From the NCBI GenBank assembly GCA_964016885.1, contig OZ024741.1, positions 358,360,001 through 358,424,000 of the forward strand: a stretch of 64,000 bases of DNA, written 5' to 3'. Below the pieces are notes generated by a model that worked only from the letters and a program-made list of their open reading frames with translations, had not been told where the DNA came from and did not search any database. A program made the position numbers and the translations under genes. This DNA is from Eledone cirrhosa (Eukaryota). This document shows positions 1,240 through 60,677 of this stretch, one piece after another. How positions within the stretch are numbered: position 1 is the first letter of the stretch; the number at the start of each line of letters is the position of its first letter.

Positions 1240-1540
1240 GTAAGAAGTGATAGAAACAACCAGAAAAGGGGCAGTGCTTAAAAGATTACCTTAATGTACT
1301 AAGTAGGGTCATATTTACTATAATAGAAATAATAGGAATTCCCGTGTAAGCAAGTAGAGAGAGATTCAGATTCCCTATTTAAGATTGGTAAATGAAATTT
1401 TATTATCAGGAGGCATCTACGGTTGCCTGGCCTGAGTGACCCTAAGTATATTCCATTTAAGGGAGTATTCAATATTAGCATCTTTTAATTCCCATATGTA
1501 ACGGGCTAGTGAGGTAGAACATTTTATGTTTATACTAGAG
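1240..1540 (-). mobile_element. PLE fragment, C-terminus of GIY-YIG endonuclease
   Basis: STSLARYIWELKDANIEYSLKWNILR resembles STALSDLIWKLK...YSLAWYIIR at 24840-24915. Confidence 0.65.
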
Positions 1541-4352
1541 GTTAAATCACAGTTTGCTCTTTGACAGTACCTGACAGCTACCCGTGCGAGATTATGCAAA
1601 GATTCATTTGGGAAACAGGAATGGTGATTGTGCTGAAAAGTGAACACCGATAAACAGCTGTCTCAGTTTTCAGTGTTTGTTCGCCTAGCGGAGGAACTGA
1701 CCATCAGGTCAACGTCAGGGGACCTCTACCACCATCAATGAAGCACTACATCAGTGAGAGTCCTGGAAAGTCATCACAGTATTTCAGCAGGTAAAAAAAA
1801 AACATGATTGGTACAAACAACAGCTTCACAGTTAGAGATCGTGATTTTCTGACCCTGCATGTTGCTAAAGAAGGATCAAATTCTCTCTACGAAGATGATG
1901 TTATATGACATAATGGACGAGCATCCTCCGATGTCAGGACTAGGGGTGGCGGACTATCTCGACCAAAGAGATCATATATCTTCGGCTCTCTAAACTACCG
2001 CTCACTCACATCCTACTTTTCCTGTGAGGAGTTCAACAAGCATAACACATATAACAGTGCAATAGTATGTGTTCAAGAACACTGATTTATCTACAATAAA
2101 AATGATACAGACATAATCGCCTATAACATTGGCAAAACACTGTTTACTGCATCAACATAGAACAATAACATCGGTGTTGCAGCTGGAGAGTTGTGCTTGA
2201 GAGTACAAACATACCTTCTTCCTCTACTAACAAAGGTAACGAAGGTCAACGCCCGGATTGTCACAGCAGTATTCAAGGGAAATCAAAAACTGATGTTATA
2301 AGTTGCTTTTCATCCCACAATCACCTACTGGAAGAGGAAGTAGAACAGTTTTACCACCAACTGAGTGTCACTGTCTCTGAAGTATCTCCTCATGCCATGC
2401 TAATTATTGGAAGAGACTTAAATGCACATATTAGAGGCAAAGTTTTATAGCACCAGGGTACAACATAATCTCCTAGTTGGATATACCACTTTCCATAAAC
2501 TAAAACGGAAACTATAGACTTGAAGACACCCAGCTGGGCAACCTTCCCCAAATTGATCTTATCGTTTATAGGAAACTATGGAGAAACAGCATTCAAGGTT
2601 GTCGGGCAGATACTTCCTCTGCGGAGGAGATCGCAACATGAAAACAACCAAAGTTAAACTCATCCTTCGTTCAAACAGGAAATTTAGTAAGAAACAGTTA
2701 TAATGTAGTGCGCTGAGGGAAGATATCAAACTTGCAAGAACAATCTATAATGATCACACTCTGTGGAAAGTGCAGCAATGGCTAGAGTCAGAAGCGATCC
2801 CCTCAAATCCTCAGTTTCAGATGTGCAGCATCACCAGACAATTCCTTTAGGGTGAACGAATCAACCAAACCCTGGCTGATTTGAGAATAGAAACAGCAAC
2901 ACACCCAGAGAAGCCTGGAAACTGATAAAAGCACTTTCTGATAAGAAGAGGAAGAATGTTATATATATCCAAAAGAAAGACCATCTTGTGACTTGGAGGG
3001 AGCACTTTCACAAACTCCTGTTAACTGACAATCATAGTGAACCAGATGTTGTGATTGACCCAGTATTTGAACTCCATCTAGAGATAAACATTACTGAATA
3101 CTTCATAGAAGCGGTGGACAATTCATTAAAGGCAATGAAATCAGGCAAACCTCCTGAGCTTGGCCTAACTGTAGACCTTTGTAAACTATTCAAAGCTCAG
3201 AAGTTTCTAAGAGATTTCTGCATCAAAACCTTTTAAGGACACCGGCCTAAGGAATAGGGAATATCAAGAATTATACCAATACCAAAGAAAGGTGACCTTA
3301 CCCTCTGCACCAACTATAGAGATATCAGTCTTACGCAAATTGCAGCAAAGACTTACAATGGGATGATCCTGAATAGGATATTACCAAGTATCGACAACAC
3401 TCTATGTTCCAGTCCAAAATGGATTTTGGCCATTTTGCTCTACTGCCTCGCATATTTTGGCTCTAAGACGGATTATTGAGGAGATACAGAATCACAAGAA
3501 GGAGGCAACAATTGTATTTATAGATTTCAAGAAGGCTTTTGATTCGATTGACTGAAAGATGTTCAAAATCATTCTTGATTATGCGATACCCTATCAGATC
3601 GTAAATGCGATTAAAGTCATGTATGAGAATACTTTAGCACCTGTGATGACACCCGAGGGAGATCCAGACCTATGCTCCATTGATACCGAAGTCCTCCATG
3701 GGGATTCTCTGATCTCTTTCCTTTTTGTGATATGCCTTGACTATGCATTGCATAATGCCATTGTACCATCGGACGGAATAATGCTGAAAAGTCGACAAAG
3801 TACCCGACGTCTGGAGCAAGTTCTACCGGAAATGGCTTATGCAGATAACACAACTCTCCTGGAAAATACCCGCAAAGAAGGTGTGGAAGTGCTACACAGA
3901 GTGGAAGCTGCAGCACAGTCCATTGGACACTTGTTGAATGCTGGCAAAAGAAAATTCATGCATTTCAATGCAACGACCATCTCTCTCGACAGATGTGAGT
4001 CATGGACACTGACTAAAAACCTACAATGAAGATGAATGGCACATTCCCCAGAATGCTGACAAAGGTCCAGAACATATCCTGGAGAATACACATAGCACAG
4101 AAATCGATATACAGCTCGCACCCTCACCTATCTGACATCATAAAGCATATGAGGCTTGCATTAGCCGGACATATGAGATGTCATAATGAGCCTGCTAGCA
4201 GAGTTCTTTGCAGGAAAACTGATGCGCTGGGAAACCAACCACAACTCTGAAGGATGTTCTTGGGGGAAATTCAGACGGCAATGCTAGACAGGATGAGCTG
4301 GAGGAGGAACTTCGTCACAGAACTGGTAACGGGTGTAGAGAAGATGAAATAA
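1541..4352 (+). mobile_element. RTE-like non-LTR retrotransposon (APE + RT), decayed
   Basis: APE motifs GSLNYRSL, VQEH and IIGRDLNAH. RT motifs NYRDISL, FIDFKKAFDSID and MAYADN. C-terminal CESWTLT...LAGHMRCH. Many stops. Confidence 0.9.
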
Positions 4353-8985: not shown

Positions 8986-10707
8986 TTATTTCATCTTCTC
9001 TACATCTATTACCAGTTCTGTGACGAAGTTCCTCCTCCAGCTCATCCTGTCTAGAGCTTTGGGTAGTTTCTATATATCTACAGTTAGGCCATCCATTCCA
9101 GGAGCTTTGCCTGATTTCATTGCCTTTAATGCATTGTCTATGAAGTATTCAGTAATGTTTATCTCTGGATGGAGTTCAAATACTGGGTCATTCACTACAT
9201 CTGGCTCACTATGATTGACAGTTGACAGGAGTTTGTGAAAGTGCTCCCTCCAAGTCACAAGATGGTCTTCCTCTTGGATATATATAACATTCTTCCTCAT
9301 CTTATCAGAAAGTGCTTTTATCAGTTTCCAGGCTTCTCTGGGTGTGTTGCTGTTTCTATTCTCAAATCAGCCAGGGTTTGGTTGATTCGTTCACCCTAAA
9401 GGAATTGTCTGGTGATGCTGCACATCTGAAACTGAGGATTTGAGGGGATCGCTTCTGACTCTAGCCATTGCTGCACTTTCCACAGAGTGTGATCATTATA
9501 GATTGTTCTTGCAAGTTTGATATCTTCCCTCAGCGCACTACATTATAACTGTTTCTTACTAAATTTCCTGTTTGAAAGAAGGATGAGTTTAACTTTGGCT
9601 GTTTTCATGTTGCGATCTCCTCCGCAGAGGAAGTATCTGCCCGACAACCTTGAATGCTGTTTCTCCATAGTTTCCTATAAACGATAAGATCAATTTGGGG
9701 AAGGTTGCCCAGCTGGGTGTCTTCAAGTCTATAGTTTCCGTTTTAGTTTATGGAAAGTGGTATATCCAACTAGGAGATTATGTTGTACCCTGGTGCTATA
9801 AAACTTTGCCTCTAATATGTGCATTTAAGTCTCCTCCAATAATTAGCATGGCATGAGGAGATACTTCAGAGACAGTGACACTCAGTTGGTGGTAAAACTG
9901 TTCTACTTCCTCTTCCAGTAGGTGATTGTGGGATGAAAAGCAACTTATAACATCAGTTTTTGATTTCCCTTGAATACTGCTGTGACAATCCGGGCGTTGA
10001 CCTTCGTTACCTTTGTTAGTAGAGGAAGAAGGTATGTTTGTACTCTCAAGCACAACTCTCCAGCTGCAACACCGATGTTATTGTTCTATGTTGATGCAGT
10101 AAACAGTGTTTTGCCAATGTTATAGGCGATTATGTCTGTATCGTTTTCATTGTAGATAAATCAGTGTTCTTGAACACATACTATTGCACTGTTATATGTG
10201 TTATGCTTGTTGAACTCCTCACAGGAAAAGTAGGATGTGAGTGAGCGGTAGTTTAGAGAGCCGAAGATATATGATCTCTTTGGTCGAGATAGTCCGCCAC
10301 CCCTAGTCCTGACATCGGAGGATGCTCGTCCATTATGTCATATAACATCATCTTCGTAGAGAGAATTTGATCCTTCTTTAGCAACATGCAGGGTCAGAAA
10401 ATCACGATCTCTAACTGTGAAGCTGTTGTTTGTACCAATCATGTTTTTTTTTTACCTGCTGAAATACTGTGATGACTTTCCAGGACTCTCACTGATGTAG
10501 TGCTTCATTGATGGTGGTAGAGGTCCCCTGACGTTGACCTGATGGTCAGTTCCTCCGCTAGGCGAACAAACACTGAAAACTGAGACAGCTGTTTATCGGT
10601 GTTCACTTTTCAGCACAATCACCATTCCTGTTTCCCAAATGAATCTTTGCATGACCTCGCACGGGTAGCTGTCAGGTACTGTCAAAGAGCAAACTGTGAT
10701 TTAACCT
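8986..10707 (-). mobile_element. Inverted copy of the RTE-like LINE with ~1.1-kb deletion of the RT
   Basis: Reverse complement of 1541-3197 joined directly to 4284-4352. Confidence 0.9.
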
Positions 10708-11243
10708 TTAGGAGATTAGTATCAGTGTACATATATATATTATCAAAAATGACAATAAATGCCGGTGTGTGTTGTGACAAGGTTTTACTTCACAGAAGTC
10801 AAATGAATTAATATAAATAATTTGTTACCCGTTGGTCACAACTCCCAGACTGGAGTGTGTAGAGAAGAACAGAAATCTTCTCTTGGAGGTGTTAGTATTT
10901 CTTTAGGCTGCCGGTATTCTTCTTCTTGTTGGCGAAGAAAGTGAGACAGGAGTCATTCTTCTTCTGGTTGGCGAAGGAAGTGAGTCAGGAGTCATCTCTT
11001 GACGAGGTCTCAAGTGTTGTTGTCACTTCGGATTTCAGGATGCGAGAGAGACTGATTGCTTGCCAGCCCTCAGATTTATAGTCCCCAGGGGGACGCAACT
11101 CCATTTAGTACCTGAATCTGCCAATGGGGGTCGCGCCTGTCGCAAAGGGACGTAACTCCTATACGTGCTGAGTTACGACCGTCGTAAAGGGACGCAACTC
11201 CCATACGTGCTGAGTCACAGCCGTAACGGGTCGCTACGCTACA
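10708..11243 (-). mobile_element. Probable solo LTR
   Basis: 5-bp TSD AACCT (10703-10707 and 11244-11248), single copy at the empty site in the left arm. Minus strand starts TGTAGCG and has TATA-like CTATAAAT plus short internal tandem repeats. The terminal CA is not intact. Confidence 0.55.
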
Positions 11244-14480: not shown

Positions 14481-17146
14481 TTATCTCTTTCTCTTAATTT
14501 CGAGTATATTTTTTTGACCGGCCACCTTCCTGGTGGCAAGGTTGTAAAAGAAAAGAAATTGTCATCCCTTGAAACGCAAGAATGTTTTGCAAATTTTGAA
14601 GGTGCCAGCTATCGCAGCCACAGACTATGAATTAGGGAGCTGCGCTTTTTGTCCGCAAATCCAAGTTCAGTCATACTTTGGTCCAAGCGGGTTGGTATAT
14701 AACCCGTAGCTCCAATAATGATGGGTATGAAGCTAAAGGTGTATCTTGGATACTGGATTTGTAAACTCCTCATCAATGGTCCGTAGATGTCCTCCTTCTC
14801 CTGTATTTTTCTGACAACGTTTACATCAAGTGGGCAGCTGATCTCCACAACAGAACACGTTTTCAATGTGTGGTCCCAAACAACAATATCAGGCCGGTTG
14901 TGCTTTAATTTGGTGGCAGTTTTTATTTTCAGGTTCCACCAGTATTCCTTAGTGCCATCTGTCTCAATATATTCTTCCTCGTTTGTTGTTAATGTTGTTT
15001 TCCGAAGTGCATTCCAGATGGTTCTAGCTATCCCATCGTGTCTCATGGGGAGGTAGTAGCGAGATGACATTCTTTCGCAGCTGGCAACAATGTGGCTTAC
15101 ATCCTCGATCTTTGTTTTACATAGCCTACATTTATTGTCAGCTGCTGGCCCTCCTCTTTTGTGCAGCAGATATTTGGTAGGGAGTTCTTGTTCCTGTATT
15201 GCATAGAGATATCCCTCAAGGTGTGATGTCATAAACTTGTCGGAACTCCATGCCAGGCTTTTGAGTGGTTTATCCCCCTCTATGGTCTGTGTTTTACGTC
15301 TCAAGTATCCATGCACAACTTTTTCTGTAAATTGGTCAATTTTTTCATCTTGTTTGAACATTGAATAGGATCTTCCGATTTCTCTGGGTGAGAAATTTAT
15401 ATCAGGCTTTATTCCATATCTCTCCTCCAGATCAGTGGCTATTCTAATGATATTTTATTTTCATGCTCATAAACCTGGGCAAGATGGTTGCCAACCTTTT
15501 TCCTCTGTTGAAGGTGTTGCTTCAGTGTCACTATCCGACTCTCATATGTTGTTAATATTGATTTTAGACCCCGGCCACCTTCCTTGTGTGAGGAGTATAG
15601 CCTATCCACATCACCATTGATGTTAAAGTTCCCAGTAACACTGAGAAGTTTGTGAGTTCTAACATCCATCTCGCTTAATTCTTGCAATGACCAGTTCAGC
15701 AGGCCAAATGTTGGCGTCAGAATTGGCACAGCATAAGTATTGTGGGCAATGTATTTGTTGTACGCTGACAGTTCTGATGACCATATTTTCTTTACTCTTC
15801 TGAGGTATTCAGTTCTGGTTCTCTCCTTATTTATGGGTCCATCATATCTGACATTTTCATCCTGTCCAAGATATCTGTAGTTGTCACCTGACTGTAGAGG
15901 TTGTATTGTCAGGCCGTTCATCTCTAGATTTATAGAGGAGGGCACAGCTCTTCCACGTTTTACTGCCAAATATGCACACTTGGACTCACCAAATTTCATT
16001 TTGATGTCTGTTGAAAATTGTGTAATGAGGTCCAATTGTTTCTTGATGTCATTGATATTTGGCCCATACAACTTCAGGTCATCAACAAAAAAAAGATGGG
16101 AGATACTTCTGGATCCACTTCTTTGTCCACCTTGTTTCCTGAGTAGGTAAGATAGTGGATTTAGTGAGAGAACGAAGAGTAGCACTGACAAGCTATCACC
16201 CTGAAAGATGCCCTTCTGGTAATGTATCTTATCAGTCTTAACTTACTCCTTCTCACCTCTAAGGATTAAATTGGTGTACCAGTTCTTGGTCAGGCGTTCA
16301 ACAGCAGCTACCAATGGTTGTGGGACTTTGGCTAACTGTAAAGCCTTAATAATCCACCCATGAGGTACACTATCAAATGCTTTTTGATAGTCCAGCCACA
16401 CCACTGTCATGTTTCTGCGATTCTTTGTTGTTTTTCCTGAATCATTTTATTAGTTAGTAGGTGATCTATGCAACCCACACCTCCCTCTTTCCACCAGCTT
16501 GCTCAGGTGTTATGATGTTGTTGGTAGCACAGTGATCCTGTAAGAACAGGTTAAGGCACCCAGTGTATAATTTATACATTATGTTTTGGCAGGCTATTGG
16601 GCGGTAATTTTTTAGCAAGGGTGGTTTGGCTATTTTGGGGGAATGAGGAGAGTAGTGGTAGTTGATAACCATCTGGGCAGTTCTTGTGTGCCTTTAATGG
16701 TTTCTGTAAACATCCGTATGAGATCTTGCCGATAGAAAGTGAAATTCTTCAACCAGTATCCTGTAATGGGGTCTGAGCCTGGTGATTTCCTATTCGACAT
16801 TTTCTGTAGAGCTGTTTCCAGTATTGACCCATCTATGTCATATTGTTTTGTCTGGACATGTTGGCAGTAGTCCTTTTCCAGTTCTTTTAGCCAATTAGTT
16901 TGTCTGTTGAATCCATCATCCGTTTCCCATACATATCTCCAGTAGCTCTCAACCTGTTCTTTTGAAGAGGTGTCATTTACAGGGATTGAGCTTTTGCCAC
17001 CGAAGCTGCGATAAACTGATTTAGGATCTCTGGCAAACAATCTATTTAGCACTTGTCGTTTATGTGCTGTTGACTTATATTTTAGTCTTTCTGTTGTAGC
17101 TGTGAGTTGTTGTTTCAACAGGTGTAATTTGGAGTTGAAAGTTTTA
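14481..17146 (-). mobile_element. R4/Dong-like non-LTR retrotransposon (RT + restriction-like endonuclease), 5'-truncated, inside (TATG)n
   Basis: NYRPIACQN, WLDYQKAFDSVPH, GIFQGDSLS, HLFFVDDLKLY, CCHC knuckle CRLCK..SHIVASC, RHD and RPDIVVWD..EISCP. (TATG)n on both sides. Confidence 0.9.
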
Positions 17147-17420
17147 ATGTATGTATGTATGTATGTATGTATGTATGTATGTATGTATGTATGTATGTAT
17201 GTATGTATGTATGTATGTATGTATGTATGTATGTATGTATGTATGTATGCATGTGTGTATGTATGTATGTATGTATGTATGTATGTATGTATGTATGTAT
17301 GTATGTATGTATGTATGTATTTATGTATGTATGTGTATATGTATATATGTATGCATGTGTGCAAGTATGTATGTATGTATGTATGTATGTATGTATGTAT
17401 GTATGTATGTATGTATGTAT
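17147..17420. repeat. (TATG)n microsatellite
   Basis: Direct inspection. Confidence 0.95.
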
Positions 17421-17470
17421 AACCTCTCGTTATACACACAAACACACACATATATATGTATATATATATA

Positions 17471-17596
17471 TGTAAAAGGTAAACAGAAATAACAATATAA
17501 TCGGTACAGTATATGGAAGGGATATATTAAGTTAACGCTTGATATAGCAGGAAGAGGATCTTAACGTTTCGGACGCTAGTCTTTCATCAGAAGAAT
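17471..17596 (-). mobile_element. Isolated PLE 3' terminus with a hammerhead, between (TA)n tracts
   Basis: Closely matches 62433-62558, the end of a GIY-YIG-bearing PLE. Confidence 0.75.
17559..17594 (-). ncRNA. Minimal type-I hammerhead ribozyme
   Basis: TCTT-CTGATGA-AAGAC tagc GTCC-GAAACGTT-AAGA, with palindromic stem III. Confidence 0.75.
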
Positions 17597-17681: not shown

Positions 17682-17835
17682 TAGAAAGTGAGGTTTTTTT
17701 TACAAAATGAAAAATAACCGAGGTGTCCTACACGAGTGAAAGTATAAAGAAAAAGAGATGAAATCGAAAATGCAACTGGAGTCTTATTTTTTAAAAAAAT
17801 ATATATATTTATTTGGTTCCTTTATTTATTTGGTT

Positions 17836-17873
17836 CCTTTACCGGTTTCGCAGTTCTTCTGCTTTTCAAAAGG
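17836..17873 (-). ncRNA. Hammerhead ribozyme with U3-A8 core variant
   Basis: CCTT-TTGAAAA-GCAG aagaa CTGC-GAAACCGGTA-AAGG. Confidence 0.65.
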
Positions 17874-19359
17874 TGAGTTGAGATGGAGGGTTTGTGGTTT
17901 TTCTCACATCTGGTTGGTCTCTGAATGTTACTTGATTTATATGGAAAAAGTGGCTCGAAATGCCAGGTTTTTCGAGAAGTAATTTGATTGGTTTGTCAAT
18001 AATTATAATAAATTTCGCGCCAGTTCGCGTTACAATAGTTCTTCAAATAAGAGGGGGGAGGGGGTTGTCGCAGGTTGTTTTTTCATATATGAGTGTTTGA
18101 ATTTCTTTTTACTTGAAAAAAGGAGGCTCACGAAGGCTTTTTTTTGGTTGGTTATAAATGAAATTATGGCTGTCACGTGAACAAATTTTCATTAAATTTT
18201 TGTGCCCTTATTTGGAAATCCATTCTGTAGCCTTTTTTTAGAGAATTTTTTGATAAGTGAAAGATAATGGTCAAGAGAAAGGGATGGGAGAATTGTTCTG
18301 GTTCAGTGAATATGGTTAGTTCGCTGGGGTGTCAGAATTCAGATTTTCTATTGAATAAAGAAAGTAAAGATATGTGTGTTTATTTGTGTGCGTGTGTGTG
18401 TGTGTGTGCGTGTGTGTGTGTGTGTGTGTGTTTGAATTTCTTTACTTTAAAAAAAGGTGGCTCACGAAGGCTTTTTTTTAATAAACGTGATTTGATTGGT
18501 TATAAATGAAATTTGGCTGTCACGTGAACAAGTTTTCATTACATTTTTGCGCCCTTATTTGGAAAACTATTCTGTAGTCTTTATAGCGAATGTTATGACA
18601 ATGGAAAGATAGTGGTCAAGAGAAATGGCATTGGGAGAATTGCTCTGGTTCAGTGAATATGGTTAGTTCGCTGGGGTGTCAGAGTTCAGATTTTCTATTG
18701 AAGTGAAGATATGTATGTTTATTTGTGTGCTTGTGTGAGTGTATGTGTGTGTGTGTGTGTATGTGTGTATTGGAAGATGATTCTATTAGTAGAAATGGGG
18801 GAGGGAGTTGTGTGTGTGTGTATATGGGTGTTATGTGTGTGTGTGCGAGTATTTTAAGATGGAGGGAATATATATTTTGTGTGTGTGTATATATATGTGT
18901 GTAGGAAAGTGGTTCTATTAGTAGAAATTAGTGTGTATATGGGTGTTATGTGTGTGTGTGCGAGTATGTTAAGATGGAGAGAATATATATTTTTTGTGTG
19001 TGTGTATATATATGTGTGTAGGAAAGTGGTTCTATTAGTAGAAATGGGGAGGGAGTTGTGGGTGTGGGTGTTGTTATGTGTGTGTATGGGTGTTATGTGT
19101 GTGGGAGTATGGTTAGCATGTTAAAATGAAGAGAATATATATATATATTGTGTGTGTGTGTATGTGTGTGTGTAGGAAAGTGATTCCTTTAGTAGGAATA
19201 TTTTTGAATGAACATATTTTCCTTACTTATTCGTGTTTGCTGTTGTATTGTCAGTGCAAACGTATGTTAAGGTTTATTTAGTTCGGGTTTTTATTTTCTA
19301 AAGTAGAAGGTGTTATGTGTGTGTGTGTATGTCATATTATGGTGTTGACATAATGTATA

Positions 19360-20244
19360 TTAAACCATATTTAATGTTGGTCTATATTTTTGAATAAACA
19401 TATTTTCCTTATTTATTCGCATTTGTTCTGTTGTATTGTTAGCGCAAAGGTAAAATGGGAAGACTTGGAATTTGGGTGTCTTATTACTTGCGCAAATGTA
19501 TAGATGTGCACTTAGTGGTATCTGTCTCGTGGTTGGATCTCGTAATTGTTGGCGATGAACTGTCATTCTGTTTCTGAGTGTGAGTTTAGTTTGTCCTATA
19601 TAATCTTCATTGCATCCTTTACATTTAATGGCATAAACTAGATTTTTTGATGAGCAAGTGAAGTGATTTTTTACAGTAAAATTTTGTCCTGATTTAAATG
19701 TATACGCGTTGCCTTCAATGAGGTGAGTGCAAGTTCCACAATTAGAGCGACCACATTTTTTGATACTTGGTTGTGGGTTTGTGGTAGGTAATTTGGCATT
19801 GGTGAGTAATGTTTTCAGTGATTTTGGTTGTCTTTTGCTTTTGATTATTTTGTGTGTTTCAAGGGCTTTTTTCATTCTTGGGTTTTGTTTTAGTAGTGGG
19901 ATGTTATTGTGAATAGTGTTGTAAGCTTCCGCATTTCTTGGGTTGTGTGTTGAGATATATGATAGAATATTGGACGTACCTTGAATTTGTTTCTGTTTCC
20001 GTAATTCATCAATGCCTATTGCTTTAGCCCTTTCTATTCCATTATTTATTAATAATAGTGGGTACTCTCTCTCGAGTAGAATTTCCTTTAATTCTTGAAG
20101 TCTTTTATTTCGCGTTTCATAATTGGAGACAATTGTGCAAATTCTTCTTGCTAGGTTAAAAGGAATGTTCGTCTTCGTGTGCTTTGGATGGTTGGAAGTG
20201 AATAGAAGATATTGTTTGGAATCTGTTGGTTTGTAGTGCTTCCA

Positions 20245-20245
<1 letters not shown>
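19360..20245 (-). pseudogene. PLE ORF C-terminus (RT thumb, Cys linker, GIY-YIG endonuclease)
   Basis: YKPTDSKQYL..SNHPKHTKTNIPFNLARRI, CGRSNCGTC, NLVYAIKC..C..YIGQT..LRNRMTVH and E..FI..Y.P.LN. The longer listed ORF only extends into (CA)n. Confidence 0.9.
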
Positions 20246-20334
<89 letters not shown>

Positions 20335-21176
20335 GCACACAAATAAACATACATATCTTCACTTCAATAGAAAATCTGAACTCTGACACCCCAGCGAACT
20401 AACCATATTCACTGAACCAGAACAATTCTCCCAATGCCATTTCTCTTGACCACTATCTTTCCATTGTCATAACATTCGCTATAAAGACTACAGAATAGTT
20501 TTCCAAATAAGGGCGCAAAAATGTAATGAAAACTTGTTCACGTGACAGCCAAATTTCATTTATAACCAATCAAATCACGTTTATTAAAAAAAAGCCATCG
20601 TGAGCCACCTTTTTTTAAAGTAAAGAAATTCAAACACACACACACACGCACACACACACACAAGCACACAAATAAACACACATATCTTTACTTTCTTTAT
20701 TCAATAGAAAATCTGAATTCTGACACCCCAGCGAACTAACCATATTCACTGAACCAGAACAATTCTCCCATCCCTTTCTCTTGACCATTATCTTTCACTT
20801 ATCAAAAAATTCTCTAAAAAAAGGCTACAGAATGGATTTCCAAATAAGGGCATAAAAATTTAATGAAAATTTGTTCACGTGACAGCCATAATTTCATTTA
20901 TAACCAACCAAAAAAAAGCCTTCGTGAGCCTCCTTTTTTCAAGTAAAAAGAAATTCAAACACTCATATATGAAAAAACAACCTGCGACAACCCCCCCTCT
21001 TATTTGAAGAACTATTGTAACGCGAACTGGCGCGAAATTTATTATAATTATTGACAAACCAATCAAATTACTTCTCGAAAAACCTGGCATTTCGAGCCAC
21101 TTTTTCCATATAAAACAAGTAACATTCAGAGACCAACCAGATGTGAGAAAAACCACAGACCCTCCATCTCAACTCA

Positions 21177-21214
21177 CCTTTTGAAAAGCAGAAGAACTGC
21201 GAAACCGGTAAAGG
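21177..21214 (+). ncRNA. Hammerhead ribozyme with U3-A8 core variant (inverted pseudo-LTR copy)
   Basis: Mirror copy of 17836-17873. Confidence 0.65.
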
Positions 21215-21286
21215 AACCAAATAAATATATATATTTAAAAAAAAAATAAGACTCCAGTTGCATTTTCGATTTCATCTCTTTTTCTT

Positions 21287-24267: not shown

Positions 24268-25081
24268 ATGACGTGGTACAACCCACCCTACTCAGCGGCC
24301 CTAAAGAAAAGCTTGGCCCGATTATTCTTTGGAGCACTTGACAAATGCTTCCCGAGGGACCACAGATACCACAGGATCTTCAACAGACACACTGTGAAGC
24401 TTTCGTATTCCACCACGAGAAATTTGGCCTTACACATAGCTAGCATCAACAGAAGTAGGCTTAAAAACCACACACAACCAGAAGATGGCAATACAAACAC
24501 TCAGCAGAACCATGTGAAAGGAGGGAAGGGGGGACCCAGAGCCCACCCAAGAAACCCAAACAGACCCGAGGACCCCCCACCGAGCCTGGGGGAAGACCAA
24601 CATGTAACACATAACGGGAACCCTAATCTAGGCACGCAAAGGCCGACCACCCTCTGCAACTGCAGAAACCCCGAATCACGCCCCCTTTGTAATGAATGCC
24701 TCAAGAAGAACCTAGTGTACGGTTGTAGGGTTAAAACCCCCCAACTCCGAACACCTCTACATAGGAGCCACATCAACGAGCTTTAAAGACCGCTGGTACA
24801 ACCATCGCCATGCATTCAAGAAGGAGGCCAAAAGGAAAAGCACAGCTCTCTCCGACCTGATCTGGAAGCTTAAGCTGGACAGGACCCCATACTCTCTGGC
24901 CTGGTACATAATCAGGAAAGTACCACCCGATAAAGGGGGATCTTGCATATGCAAATTATGCCTGAACGAGACCCTCGAGATACTAAGAGGTGGAAGCGGC
25001 CTGATAAACCTCAGAACCGACTTCTTCGGGACATGCAGACACCTTAGAGCCGGGACCTTTCTCAAGATATATGGACAGTAG
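24268..25081 (+). pseudogene. PLE GIY-YIG endonuclease region, frameshifted near 24750
   Basis: LVYGC..YIGAT motif split across frames; stop at 25079-25081. Confidence 0.85.
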
Positions 25082-37768: not shown

Positions 37769-38266
37769 AAAAATATAAAGAAATAAGGATAAGTGAGAGC
37801 ATATAAGTACAGAATATGATAGTGGTGGTGGTGAGTAAGTGTCCGATAAGGATGCTGTGGTGACATGAACAGTCATATTCGAAACATACATAGATACGTG
37901 TAGAGAGTCTGAGGTAGTGACAGATAAAAGAAAAAGCAATAAATTATAAATTAATTGGGAGATACTAGTATGAGACCCAAGGGCTAAGGGTGGATGGTAG
38001 AGGTAAATATTTATATTATATTTTTTAAGGTTGTTCAATGGTAATAATTTGATATACCAGAACTTTAATATTAAGATAAGCAGAACAAGTAAAATTCAAC
38101 CAATTTTTCAAAATAAATTAAAAAATATAATATAAATATTTACCTCTTCTAATGGCCCTTACTGATCAGTTTCGCTTTGAAAAACCCCAGAATCCAACGG
38201 ATTTTATATATATATATATGGCAAGTAAGTATGTTTTGAAACAGTGAGCGAGTTTGAAATTAGAAA

Positions 38267-38366
38267 ATATATAGCTTTCACCGTATTTTTGACTAAAGGA
38301 ATTTTAGCTTGATAACGTTATCAAGCTAAAATTCCTTTAGTCAAAAATACGGTGAAAGCTATATAT
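38267..38366. repeat. Perfect 100-bp palindrome with no spacer, in a (TA)n-flanked module
   Basis: Centre AAC|GTT at 38316/38317; arms checked base by base. Confidence 0.95.
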
Positions 38367-38377
38367 ATATATATATA

Positions 38378-38578
38378 TAACGAAGGAATTGTGGTAAGGA
38401 ACCAGATGGCCCATAACGCGCCAGAGTACTCAATACTTAGGGTAGTAGAGTGGGTAATAGGAAAAAGTATGACCCCGACGGCAGTGCTCAAGCCGTTTCG
38501 ACGGCTATTTTTGGACTAGTCCAGAAATAGCCATCGAAACAGCTTGAGTTCTGCCGTCGGGGTCATACTTTTTCCCTA
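38378..38578. mobile_element. Hairpin module copy 1 (TA-embedded)
   Basis: Unique ~80-bp tail plus an imperfect hairpin at 38458-38578 centred on TGGACT|AGTCCA. Confidence 0.85.
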
Positions 38579-51318: not shown

Positions 51319-51746
<428 letters not shown>

Positions 51747-55844: not shown

Positions 55845-58800
55845 AACCCTCTTTATATATTATAACATCCCCTCTCTCTATATATATATCTAACCCACTC
55901 TCTCTAAATATATTATAACCCCCTCTCTCTAAATATATTAAAACCACCCTCTCTCTATATATAAACCCATCCTTTTCTCTATATATTAAAACCACCCTCT
56001 CTCTATATATAAACACATCCTTTTCTCTATATATTAAAACCACCCTCTCTCTATATATAAACCCATCCTTTTCTCTATATATTAAAACCACCCTCTCTCT
56101 ATATATAAACCCATCCTTTTCTCTATATATTAAAACCACCCTCTCTCTATATATAAACCCATCCTTTTCACTATATATTAAAACCACCCTCTCTCTATAT
56201 ATAAACCCATCCTTTTCTCTATATATTAAAACCACCCTCTCTCTATATATAAACCCATCCTTTTCTCTATATATTAAAACCACCCTCTCTCTATATATAA
56301 ACCCATCCTTTTCTCTATATATTAAAACCACCCTCTCTCTATATATAAACCCATCCTTTTCACTATATATTAAAACCACCCTCTCTCTATATATAAACCC
56401 ATCCTTTTCTCTATATATTAAAACCACCCTCTCTCTATATATAAACCCATCCTTTTCTCTATATATTAAAACCACCCTCTCTCTATATATAAACCCATCC
56501 TTTTCTCTATATATTAAAACCACCCTCTCTCTATATATAAACCCATCCTTTTCTCTATATATTAAAACCACCCTCTCTCTATATATAAACCCATCCTTTT
56601 CTCTATATATTAAAACCACCCTCTCTCTATATATAAACCCATCCTTTTCTCTATATATTAAAACCACCCTCTCTCTATATATAAACCCATCCTTTTCTCT
56701 ATATATTAAAACCACCCTCTCTCTATATATAAACCCATCCTTTTCTCTATATATTAAAACCACCCTCTCTCTATATATAAACCCATCCTTTTCTCTATAT
56801 ATTAAAACCACCCTCTCTCTATATATAAACCCATCCTTTTCTCTATATATTAAAACCACCCTCTCTCTATATATAAACCCATCCTTTTCTCTATATATTA
56901 AAACCACCCTCTCTCTATATATAAACCCATCCTTTTCTCTATATATTAAAACCACCCTCTCTCTATATATAAACCCATCCTTTTCTCTATATATTAAAAC
57001 CACCCTCTCTCTATATATAAACCCATCCTTTTCTCTATATATTAAAACCACCCTCTCTCTATATATAAACCCATCCTTTTCTCTATATATTAAAACCACC
57101 CTCTCTCTATATATAAACCCATCCTTTTCACTATATATTAAAACCACCCTCTCTCTATATATAAACCCATCCTTTTCTCTATATATTAAAACCACCCTCT
57201 CTCTATATATAAACCCATCCTTTTCTCTATATATTAAAACCACCCTCTCTCTATATATAAACCCATCCTTTTCTCTATATATTAAAACCACCCTCTCTCT
57301 ATATATAAACCCATCCTTTTCTCTATATATTAAAACCACCCTCTCTCTATATATAAACCCATCCTTTTCTCTATATATTAAAACCACCCTCTCTCTATAT
57401 ATAAACCCATCCTTTTCTCTATATATTAAAACCACCCTCTCTCTATATATAAACCCATCCTTTTCTCTATATATTAAAACCACCCTCTCTCTATATATAA
57501 ACCCATCCTTTTCTCTATATATTAAAACCACCCTCTCTCTATATATAAACCCATCCTTTTCTCTATATATTAAAACCACCCTCTCTCTATATATAAACCC
57601 ATCCTTTTCTCTATATATTAAAACCACCCTCTCTCTATATATAAACCCATCCTTTTCTCTATATATTAAAACCACCCTCTCTCTATATATAAACCCATCC
57701 TTTTCTCTATATATTAAAACCACCCTCTCTCTATATATAAACCCATCCTTTTCTCTATATATTAAAACCACCCTCTCTCTATATATAAACCCATCCTTTT
57801 CTCTATATATTAAAACCACCCTCTCTCTATATATAAACCCATCCTTTTCTCTATATATTAAAACCACCCTCTCTCTATATATAAACCCATCCTTTTCTCT
57901 ATATATTAAAACCACCCTCTCTCTATATATAAACCCATCCTTTTCTCTATATATTAAAACCACCCTCTCTCTATATATAAACCCATCCTTTTCTCTATAT
58001 ATTAAAACCACCCTCTCTCTATATATAAACCCATCCTTTTCTCTATATATTAAAACCACCCTCTCTCTATATATAAACCCATCCTTTTCTCTATATATTA
58101 AAACCACCCTCTCTCTATATATAAACCCATCCTTTTCTCTATATATTAAAACCACCCTCTCTCTATATATAAACCCATCCTTTTCACTATATATTAAAAC
58201 CACCCTCTCTCTATATATAAACCCATCCTTTTCTCTATATATTAAAACCACCCTCTCTCTATATATAAACCCATCCTTTTCTCTATATATTAAAACCACC
58301 CTCTCTCTATATATAAACCCATCCTTTTCTCTATATATTAAAACCACCCTCTCTCTATATATAAACCCATCCTTTTCTCTATATATTAAAACCACCCTCT
58401 CTCTATATATAAACCCATCCTTTTCTCTATATATTAAAACCACCCTCTCTCTATATATAAACCCATCCTTTTCTCTATATATTAAAACCACCCTCTCTCT
58501 ATATATAAACCCATCCTTTTCTCTATATATTAAAACCACCCTCTCTCTATATATAAACCCATCCTTTTCTCTATATATTAAAACCACCCTCTCTCTATAT
58601 ATAAACCCATCCTTTTCTCTATATATTAAAACCACCCTCTCTCTATATATAAACCCATCCTTTTCTCTATATATTAAAACCACCCTCTCTCTATATATAA
58701 ACCCATCCTTTTCTCTATATATTAAAACCACCCTCTCTCTATATATAAACCCATCCTTTTCTCTATATATTAAAACCACCCTCTCTCTATATATAAACCC

Positions 58801-59652
58801 ATCCTTTTCTCTATATATTAAAACCACCCTCTCTCTATATATAAACCCATCCTTTTCACTATATATTAAAACCACCCTCTCTCTATATATAAACCCATCC
58901 TTTTCTCTATATATTAAAACCACCCTCTCTCTATATATAAACCCATCCTTTTCTCTATATATTAAAACCACCCTCTCTCTATATATAAACCCATCCTTTT
59001 CTCTATATATTAAAACCACCCTCTCTCTATATATAAACCCATCCTTTTCACTATATATTAAAACCACCCTCTCTCTATATATAAACCCATCCTTTTCTCT
59101 ATATATTAAAACCACCCTCTCTCTATATATAAACCCATCCTTTTCTCTATATATTAAAACCACCCTCTCTCTATATATAAACCCATCCTTTTCACTATAT
59201 ATTAAAACCACCCTCTCTCTATATATAAACCCATCCTTTTCTCTATATATTAAAACCACCCTCTCTCTTTATATAAACCCATCCTTTTCACTATATATTA
59301 AAACCACCCTCTCTCTATATATAAACCCATCCTTTTCACTATATATTAAAACCACCCTCTCTCTATATATAAACCCATCCTTTTCTCTATATATTAAAAC
59401 CACCCTCTCTCTTTATATAAACCCATCCTTTTCTCTATATATTAAAATCACCCTCTCTATATATTATAACACCCCTCTCTCTATATATATATATTTAGCC
59501 CCCTCTCTCTATATATTTTAACACTCCTTTCTCTATATTATAACCCCCTCTCTCTATATTATAACCCCCTTCTCTCTATATATTATAACCCATCCCTTTC
59601 TCTATATTATAAACCCCTTTCTTTAAATATAGTATAACCCCCTCTCTCTATA
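55845..59652. repeat. 48-bp minisatellite, about 73 near-identical units (core ~55935-59450), with degenerate ~22-bp monomers at both edges
   Basis: Unit CTCTCTATATATAAACCCATCCTTTTCTCTATATATTAAAACCACCCT; the pattern recurs every 240 bp (5 units). Confidence 0.97.
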
Positions 59653-59924
59653 TGGGGTCGATACAATAAAGTACCAGTAATGCACTGGGTAATTGCTGGC
59701 CTTGTGCCAAAAGTAGAAACAATTAATATATAGATAACTGGATCGAATGTCAACTGGCGTTACACAGTTATACAGAAGAACCTGCCTTCCTTTACGTACG
59801 AACTTAAACCTTCAGTCAGTAGGCACCTCTTAACCCAGTATACATCCACCCCACACCCTACTCCATCTTCCCACTTCCGTCCACACCACCCTTTCTCTGT
59901 AAAGTTATGTTGGTACTACAGAAC

Positions 59925-60467: not shown

Positions 60468-60659
60468 ACGAAGGAAATGTGGTAAGGAACCAGGTGGACC
60501 ATAACGCACCAAAGTACTCAATACTTGAGGTAGTAGAGTGGGTAATAGGAACCAGTAAGACCCCGACAGCTGAGCTCAAGCCGTTTCGACGGCTAATTCT
60601 GGACTGAATTAGCCGTCGAAACGGCTTGAGCTCAGCTGTCGGGGTCTTACTGGTTCCTA
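60466..60659. mobile_element. Hairpin module copy 3 (TA-embedded)
   Basis: Perfect 54-bp arms at 60546-60599 and 60606-60659, loop TGGACT. Confidence 0.9.
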
Positions 60660-60677
60660 TATATATATATATATATA

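What the first reader, a model, noticed from the sequence alone, without database searches (positions are those of the whole stretch)
38220..38366. Unrelated module with the same architecture: perfect 100-bp palindrome folding back in a hammerhead-like stem II
Seen: (TA)n, a ~47-bp unique tail, a spacerless 100-bp palindrome (38267-38366), then (TA)n. The right arm ends GGT-GAAA-GC-TA-TATA, matching a GAAA + palindromic stem III + NUH half-hammerhead. Inference: a second, sequence-unrelated family yields the same snap-back product, so this looks like a general mechanism. Spacerless 100-bp palindromes are normally unstable, which suggests a recent insertion.
Basis: partly seen in the sequence, partly recalled or inferred. 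Interest (0 to 1): 0.7.

Follow-up and report, generated by a model that had tools for sequence, protein, structure and literature searches.

The report
tRNA-headed Penelope hitchhiker without a ribozyme
The palindrome is a shortened copy of an abundant non-coding repeat that carries a tRNA look-alike and no hammerhead core; it was likely inserted by Penelope-type jumping-gene enzymes copying one RNA from both sides of a DNA cut, and half of the sampled copies break off just behind the tRNA-like loop, which would act as a roadblock.

Summary
The 100-bp spacerless palindrome, tail and (TA)n flanks are real. The hammerhead reading fails. The parent is a 259-bp tandem unit with a tRNA-like cloverleaf and no CUGANGA. 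Its GAAA is a hairpin loop, replaced by GATA in a sister subfamily with the same anatomy. Fold points vary, and this one occurs at 2 sites genome-wide. The family has thousands of arms (2,049 hits of one 25-mer) and the published anatomy of Penelope-like element (PLE) insertions: inverted 5'-truncated copy, one-sided tail, partial tandems, (TA)n target. Of 40 two-armed insertions, 33 pair one short with one long end; none pairs like with like. Several arms cannot be snap-back copies of each other. 53 of 104 arms stop at the 3' side of the T-loop, 3 expected, and one palindromic join there occurs at 502 sites. Verdict: a ribozyme-free, tRNA-headed non-autonomous passenger, likely of Hydra-clade PLEs; partner and RNA not shown. 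The scan noted what is probably a sister subfamily on other DNA (e1-9508665).

The parts
38205..38218 (.). (TA)7, left part of the microsatellite target
   Evidence: sequence
38219..38317 (-). long arm = unit positions 161-259 of the 259-bp tRNA-headed unit, sense on the minus strand, ending at end site B
   Evidence: blastn to a full unit, 99 aligned bases, 99%; polarity from tRNA strand and arm anatomy
38219..38266 (-). PLE-type tail (unit 212-259): the stretch between the two preferred end sites, present on one arm only
   Evidence: end clusters 211/219 and 252-259; tail as described in PMC8557442 and PMC11167929
38235..38261 (-). copy A of a twin motif (ATTTC-AAAC, 9-nt variable loop, GTTTC) just beyond the short end site; copy B begins the next unit; candidate RT-positioning signal (inferred)
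   Evidence: the isolated stretch does not fold stably in a test copy
38316..38317 (.). join of the two arms on a 2-bp self-complementary overlap (CG, unit 161-162)
   Evidence: the same join at 2 genomic sites
38316..38366 (+). short arm = unit 161-211, ending at end site A inside the unit's own TATATAT, which merges with the target
38325..38341 (+). small hairpin GCTAAA/TTTAGT, also present in the neighbouring PLE's pLTR (weak similarity)
38352..38359 (+). GT-GAAA-GC: a four-base loop on a G-C plus U-G/C-G closed hairpin (GAAA or GATA by subfamily); not a hammerhead core
   Evidence: loop GAAA 250, GATA 51 of 318; closing GT/GC 211, GC/GC 70; fold is weak (z = -0.55)
38360..38379 (.). (TA)10, right part of the target, shared with the next insertion
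38381..38576 (.). neighbouring separate insertion: two-armed pLTR stub of a coding PLE with Hydra-clade motifs (family 1)
   Evidence: against PMC8557442 section 11

Best explanation
The module is a 5'-truncated, two-armed copy of a 259-bp non-coding tandem unit that carries a tRNA-like cloverleaf and no hammerhead core, and it was likely inserted into a (TA)n run by the reverse transcriptase-endonuclease of a Penelope-like element, probably of the Hydra clade. Shown: the unit; 5' ends meeting in the centre; one short plus one long outer end; both arms from the same subfamily; joins mostly at self-complementary overlaps; a 5'-end hotspot at the T-arm. Inferred steps: (1) a multi-unit RNA of the tRNA-sense strand is bound by the PLE protein. 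(2) Both strands of a (TA)n site are cut, and each 3' end primes on the same RNA, one at site A (unit 211-219) and one at site B (252-259), each just before a twin ATTT-N-ACTC motif; the gap between the sites is the tail. (3) The two cDNAs stop early, most often at the T-arm of the cloverleaf (structure and/or m1A58). (4) Having the same polarity, they can only anneal through palindromic or stem microhomology (CG here, CATG usually), and repair yields a spacerless or near-spacerless palindrome. This would also explain why folds in hammerhead-bearing families often fall in stem II: any RNA stem supplies the overlap.
For: Parent unit and partial tandems (16 of 104 arms cross the unit junction). 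tRNA fold: ARAGORN in 4 of 7 loci, Rfam tRNA 42-44 bits against a gathering score of 29, z = -5. In 65 position-ordered insertions, 41 are two-armed, all with 5' ends inward; 33 of 40 pair a short with a long end, the other 7 have one unclassifiable end, none is short+short or long+long; (TA)-rich on both sides in 27 of 40, at least one side in 36. The short arm reaches further 5' in 13 of 33, cleanly in L161, L183, L196, L205. Arms agree at diagnostic sites (7.7% disagreement against 27% shuffled, lowest of 1,000 shuffles 19%). Published anatomy and (TA)n preference (PMC8557442); a purified PLE protein cuts and extends both strands and starts at two sites that bound the tail (PMC11167929). 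A coding PLE with RWR and DKT motifs is the direct neighbour and shows a similar ATTT-N-(A/G)CTC motif at both of its end sites.
Against: No autonomous partner with a clearly homologous 3' end was found; similarity to family 1 is weak and the shared end motif is short and read by eye. The family's B hairpin is imperfect and the tail motif does not fold alone. A T5 tract follows the cloverleaf by 9 nt in 187 of 201 arms, so simple Pol III transcription would stop before the priming sites; the source of the template RNA is unexplained. A58 shows no excess of substitutions (3 of 107). In 14 of 33 insertions both arms start at about the same point, which snap-back also predicts. The sample is from one contig and needs the unit 181-205 25-mer.
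Confidence: 0.78

Rival explanations
1. One reading: a half-hammerhead element whose single cDNA snaps back in stem II to give the palindrome.
For: The perfect symmetry of this copy; 14 of 33 insertions have arms starting at about the same point; the neighbouring family 1 does fit a type I hammerhead with a U3-A8 variant core and an interrupted stem II, and the unit's 3' part weakly resembles that stem II, so GAAA may be a relic.
Against: No CUGANGA on either strand; one 1-mismatch candidate (CUGAGGG) that is not conserved (130 of 234 arms). No fit to any of six permutations on the sense strand of subfamilies A, C, D. No Rfam hammerhead on the unit. GATA replaces GAAA in subfamily C, which keeps the same anatomy. 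Non-nested arms.
Confidence: 0.05
2. Same PLE carrier, but the cloverleaf is a processing signal that replaces the ribozyme: a host nuclease cuts each unit near the T-loop, giving unit-length or circular templates whose 5' end is the hotspot.
For: The sharp hotspot at unit 105-116 (53 of 104); T5 argues against plain Pol III read-through; arms of two to three units; retrozyme monomers are circularised by RtcB in vitro (PMC7229834 passages).
Against: 38 of 90 passes read through the site; the acceptor stem is broken in subfamily D while the A and B boxes are kept, as expected of a promoter; no junction scars at the T-loop were evident.
Confidence: 0.2
3. The hotspot is inherited: a few palindromic master copies joined at CATG were themselves retrotransposed whole, so the 502 joins are not independent stops.
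For: The exact same 22-mer at 502 sites.
Against: The join occurs in subfamilies A, B-like and C with different diagnostic bases; 11 of 24 single-armed insertions also start at 105-116, mostly joined directly to TA- or TG-repeat flank; outer ends still follow the short+long rule.
Confidence: 0.1
4. A MITE or foldback-type DNA transposon with terminal inverted repeats targeting (TA)n.
For: Terminal inverted arms, TA target, short non-coding body.
Against: Unequal ends by rule, variable centre, single-armed copies (24 of 65), head-to-tail partial tandems and a tRNA-like head.
Confidence: 0.03

Closest known systems
Endonuclease-positive PLE insertion units, Hydra clade (Craig et al. 2021, PMC8557442; passages, section 11 and one supplement search seen)
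   Same: 5' truncation, inverted 5'-truncated copy, partial tandems, one-sided tail, (TA)n target.
   Different: No ORF and no hammerhead (canonical ones are reported as universal in Hydra); tRNA-like head; tail about 40-48 bp against 30-40 bp.
PAc Poseidon element in vitro (Frangieh et al. 2024, PMC11167929; parts 1-2 of 4 read)
   Same: Two start sites bounding the tail; both strands cut and extended; AT-rich target; hammerhead cleavage not needed.
   Different: Autonomous, start sites inside the ORF; the parts read do not report pairing of one start site per strand or how the arms are joined.
Metazoan non-LTR retrozymes (PMC7229834 passages; bioRxiv 10.64898/2026.07.22.740005 part 1 of 5 and passages)
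   Same: Non-coding tandem units of 170-400 nt, proposed PLE passengers.
   Different: Defined by a type I hammerhead in each unit, which this lacks; 'tRNA' and 'promoter' occur 0 times in the 2026 preprint's main text.
Schistosoma SINE-like hammerhead repeats (Sm-alpha, name recalled; seen only through review passages, PMC6765202)
   Same: Tandem units with an internal Pol III-type promoter.
   Different: They carry an active hammerhead that frees the monomers; this unit has none and has a T5 tract right after the boxes.
tRNA-derived SINEs (established knowledge, recalled)
   Same: tRNA-like head with conserved A and B boxes and a carrier-derived 3' part.
   Different: No poly(A) or LINE tail seen, circularly permuted tandem unit, two-armed insertions, terminator-like T5 inside the body.

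Membership tests
Hammerhead ribozyme (any of six permutations) | CUGANGA block or its U3-A8 / A9U variants on the RNA strand | tested here: not met
   None on the sense strand of subfamilies A and D; one U3-A8/A9U block in C with no fit. Antisense has only deviant blocks: no fit under the stricter scan, 23-47 loose fits under the relaxed one. The relaxed scanner found 2 of 3 control hammerheads in the window; the stricter one found 0 of 2 but did find family 1's.
Hammerhead ribozyme (any of six permutations) | conserved GAAA block | tested here: not met
   GATA in 51 of 318 fetched arms, a whole subfamily
Hammerhead ribozyme (any of six permutations) | self-cleavage | not testable with these tools
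   needs in vitro transcription
PLE insertion unit | inverted 5'-truncated copy adjacent to the 5' end | tested here: met
   41 of 65 two-armed, all with 5' ends inward
PLE insertion unit | tail at one end only | tested here: met
   33 of 40 short+long, none like+like
PLE insertion unit | partial tandem copies | tested here: met
   16 of 104 arms cross the unit junction
PLE insertion unit | (TA)n target (Hydra, Naiad) | tested here: met
   27 of 40 on both sides, 36 of 40 on at least one
Autonomous PLE | RT plus GIY-YIG ORF in the element | tested here: not met
   the unit closes on itself at 259 bp
Non-autonomous PLE derivative | 3' end shared with an autonomous family | tested here: inconclusive
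   weak ~45-nt similarity and a short end motif shared with Hydra-type family 1; four motifs gave no relevant hit in the Craig et al. supplement
Non-LTR retrozyme | non-coding tandem unit of 170-400 nt | tested here: met
   units of 259, about 270 and 290 bp
Non-LTR retrozyme | type I hammerhead in each unit | tested here: not met
Non-LTR retrozyme | linear and circular RNA expression | not testable with these tools
   no RNA run was available
tRNA-derived SINE | tRNA-related head with A and B boxes | tested here: met
tRNA-derived SINE | body free of a Pol III terminator up to the priming end | tested here: not met
   T5 9 nt after the cloverleaf in 187 of 201 arms
tRNA-derived SINE | LINE-derived or poly(A) 3' end with target-site duplication | tested here: not met
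   ends follow the two-site pattern into (TA)n, no poly(A); duplications cannot be read inside (TA)n
MITE / foldback DNA transposon | two equal, fixed termini | tested here: not met

The most novel reading that the evidence does not exclude
A ribozyme-free class of PLE passenger in which a tRNA mimic has replaced the hammerhead: host tRNA enzymes modify (m1A58) or cut the T-loop of each unit, and the genome records this as a fixed stop used by about 58% of reverse-transcription passes. Its thousands of insertions also record the PLE mechanism directly: one RNA, two start signals, two cut strands, two cDNAs joined at self-complementary microhomology.
Probability: 0.3. Interest if true: 0.75.

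Novelty: new variant of a known kind. Interest (0 to 1): 0.5.

Why it matters
How PLEs make their tandem and inverted insertions is called undefined in PMC8557442, and the later steps unvalidated in PMC11167929. This family gives countable rules (one short plus one long end, same-subfamily non-nested arms, microhomology joins) and a 259-nt non-coding substrate for an in vitro test. It also suggests that PLE passengers need no ribozyme and can carry a tRNA-like head, bridging SINEs and retrozymes. The palindrome at these coordinates is itself just one stub among thousands.

Tried and rejected
Rfam on the window and five parent loci: no hammerhead on the module or unit; only sub-threshold miRNA hairpin models. 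Non-circularly permuted hammerheads (PMC10085705): all need the CUGANGA block, absent from the sense strand. m1A58 misincorporation: no excess. ADAR signature: A>G variants at unit 40-41 exist, but I saw no overall strand bias by eye; not pursued. Authentic tRNA-Ser: rejected, since the variable region is short, the young subfamily lacks U33 and the acceptor stem is broken in subfamily D. Autonomous partner: profile search of the loci held at that point plus the window found only family 1, weakly; the supplement search was blank; Pfam recognised neither of two family 1 ORF pieces and hit GIY-YIG below cut-off in a third protein, so the clade rests on motifs. Sequencing runs: no RNA holder listed. 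Reads laid on the locus show the family in DNA but none spans the insertion, so neither the local assembly nor presence/absence polymorphism was tested. Variation of the tRNA-like head in other organisms remains unexamined. The original Schistosoma paper was not held. Literature searches that listed no tRNA-headed, ribozyme-free PLE passenger (judged from listings and the passages named); most subscription papers, Repbase and Dfam are not covered, and the bioRxiv supplement was closed.

Full report
Observation. The palindrome is exact: 50+50 bp, no spacer, 38267-38366, with (TA)7 and a 47-48 bp tail on the left and (TA)10 on the right. A second insertion of another family starts at 38381. The window lies in G000, a 3.0-Gb assembly; earlier scan notes call it octopus-like, which I did not test.

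Parent. The module is a repeat: 1,198 first-look candidates, 40 scored. A 25-mer of the arm has 2,049 exact hits against 0 for the reversed control. Longer copies define a 259-bp unit that closes head to tail. The finding is unit 161-259 on the minus strand joined to unit 161-211 on the plus strand. The unit holds a tRNA-like cloverleaf at positions 50-122 (ARAGORN, 4 of 7 loci; Rfam tRNA 42-44 bits), framed by a 17-20 bp stem, with T5 nine bases behind it. Sister subfamilies exist: an older B, C of about 270 bp and D of 290 bp; a T-loop pattern for C and D has 1,310 hits, several hundred of them probably in one satellite array. The copy in the window belongs to the youngest subfamily (5 loci identical over 113 bases).

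Hammerhead test. No Rfam hammerhead lies on the module or the unit. There is no CUGANGA on either strand; the only 1-mismatch candidate is CUGAGGG, found in 130 of 234 fetched arms and changed in B, C and D. After earlier notes pointed to permuted hammerheads I read PMC10085705 (part 1 of 8 and passages) and scanned for all six block orders: no fit on the sense strand of A, C or D. The relaxed scanner recovered 2 of 3 control hammerheads in the window and gave 23-47 loose fits on the antisense strand, all those printed from doubly deviant cores, which I take as chance; the stricter scan gave none for the young unit, and three fits in one older fold-back copy (L098). GAAA is the loop of a small hairpin closed by GT/GC (211) or GC/GC (70), and reads GATA in 51 of 318 arms (not a random sample). 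Subfamily C, with GATA, keeps the same joins and ends. The neighbour, family 1, is different: it is the pLTR of a coding PLE with the RW(K/R) and DKT motifs given for the Hydra clade (PMC8557442 section 11), and it fits a type I hammerhead with a U3-A8 core, stem I 4 bp, stem III 5 bp, a GUC site and an interrupted stem II (missed by the scan, which needed 3 bp in stem II). The two families share a ~45-nt motif at weak significance, so the GAAA may be a relic of such a pLTR.

Anatomy. I took 70 loci from the first C1 hits in order (one listed site already held was skipped) and dropped 5 that repeated an insertion, leaving 65. Of these 40 are two-armed with 5' ends inward, 1 is doubly so, 24 are single-armed and none faces the other way. 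Outer ends cluster at unit 211 (11), 219 (19) and 252-259 (36) of 80. In 33 of 40 one end is short and one long; 7 have one unclassifiable end; none is like+like. This is the PLE unit as published: partial tandems, an inverted 5'-truncated copy and a tail at one end, with (TA)n preference in Naiad and Hydra (PMC8557442 passages; PMC8969392 passages). A purified PLE protein cuts and extends both strands and starts at two sites that bound the tail, without needing hammerhead cleavage (PMC11167929 parts 1-2 of 4). Both end sites here are followed by a twin motif, and similar ATTT-N-(A/G)CTC motifs follow both end sites of family 1 and appear in two other repeat families; I looked for this because of note e1-8804881, and it is short and judged by eye.

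Against snap-back. In 13 of 33 insertions the short-ended arm reaches further 5' than the long-ended arm, in 6 the reverse, in 14 they match. About three of these calls are indel noise, but L161, L183, L196 and L205 are clean: each arm holds sequence the other lacks, so neither is a copy of the other. The arms nevertheless agree at subfamily-diagnostic sites (16 of 208 disagree, against 27% in shuffles) and share 7 rare variants (shuffle mean 1.4, maximum 6). One RNA primed twice explains both results and the strict short+long pairing (inference). Most joins carry overlaps of 1-8 bases at palindromes or stems, some have a few inserted bases, as expected if two same-polarity cDNAs anneal.

The T-arm hotspot. 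53 of 104 arm 5' ends fall at unit 105-116, 40 of them at 111-113; the background rate predicts 3 (p about 4e-47, treating arms as independent). Of 90 passes that reach 116, 38 get past 104. A58 of the cloverleaf is unit 106. Other 4-base palindromes passed earlier (169, 175) and the much longer flanking stem do not act this way. The symmetric CATG join exists at 502 sites, the finding's CG join at 2. A reverse-transcriptase block at m1A58 is established knowledge (recalled; PMC2359750 passages, only confirm the modification and its misreading), but the data cannot separate it from a structural stop or a cut RNA end, and A58 shows no excess substitutions (3 of 107).

Open problem. T5 sits between the promoter boxes and the priming sites in all subfamilies seen. 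The boxes are conserved while the acceptor stem decays in D, which fits a promoter, but multi-unit templates would then need read-through, Pol II transcription or circles.

On instability. Among 20 CATG-joined sites, picked mostly because they lacked the 25-mer and so biased to damaged copies, about 12 have one arm deleted or cut near the centre by my reading.

Comparison and verdict. It works like a PLE insertion and like a retrozyme or SINE passenger, but fails the defining hammerhead test for retrozymes and the terminator and 3'-end tests for SINEs (PMC7229834 passages; preprint 10.64898/2026.07.22.740005; PMC6765202 passages). My searches listed no ribozyme-free tRNA-headed PLE passenger; a 2026 octopus repeat annotation lists 893 unclassified recently active SINE families (PMC13282606 passages), among which such a family could hide. 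The scan's own notes already describe a 268-base tRNA-bearing unit in this genome, probably subfamily C, and two-ended copying for hammerhead families; look-ups by sequence returned nothing and a word look-up for the T-loop hotspot returned nothing. New variant of a known kind; interest 0.5.

Noticed in passing
G000:C28:19440625 to at least 19701500 (L269, L271-L279): A head-to-tail satellite of 290-bp subfamily D units, at least 260 kb (9 of 9 probes inside fully covered, 5 probes from 19.73 Mb on empty; roughly 900 units, inferred). Its left flank reads like a Helitron Rep fragment (recalled, not tested).
   Followed up: partly
window 38381-38576, 51443-51635, 60468-60660; parent in L129:1310-1420: Family 1 stubs come from a Hydra-type coding PLE whose pLTR fits a type I hammerhead with a U3-A8 variant core and a long interrupted stem II; canonical CUGANGA searches would miss it.
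   Followed up: partly
window 27507 (+), 29011 (-), 29662 (-): Three canonical-looking minimal hammerhead cores (CUGANGA...GAAAC), probably other PLE ends.
   Followed up: partly
window 19363-20358 (-), inside inverted repeats 17802-21248: 332-aa open frame resembling a Penelope/Poseidon RT thumb plus GIY-YIG domain (recalled).
   Followed up: no
window 24758-25060 (+): PLE endonuclease fragment, 39% identical to the L005 domain.
   Followed up: no
window about 14600-17500 (-): Three open-frame pieces resembling an R2/R4-type non-LTR RT and endonuclease (recalled).
   Followed up: no
window 1535-3109 and 9137-10711: 1,575-bp inverted repeat, 99% complementary, 6 kb apart.
   Followed up: no
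window 55933-59653: 48-bp tandem array, 77.6 copies, 97% matches, extreme GC skew.
   Followed up: no
L013, L119, L213, L228, L235 and the window itself: Family 1 or related stubs often sit directly in the (TA)n flank of a family 2 insertion, giving chains of stubs.
   Followed up: no
unit 30-49 and 124-143 (L039:1534-1648): A 17-20 bp stem frames the cloverleaf and pairs the T5 tract; its 5' strand differs from a perfect complement only by A>G changes, and subfamily D appears to re-pair it in a shifted register.
   Followed up: partly
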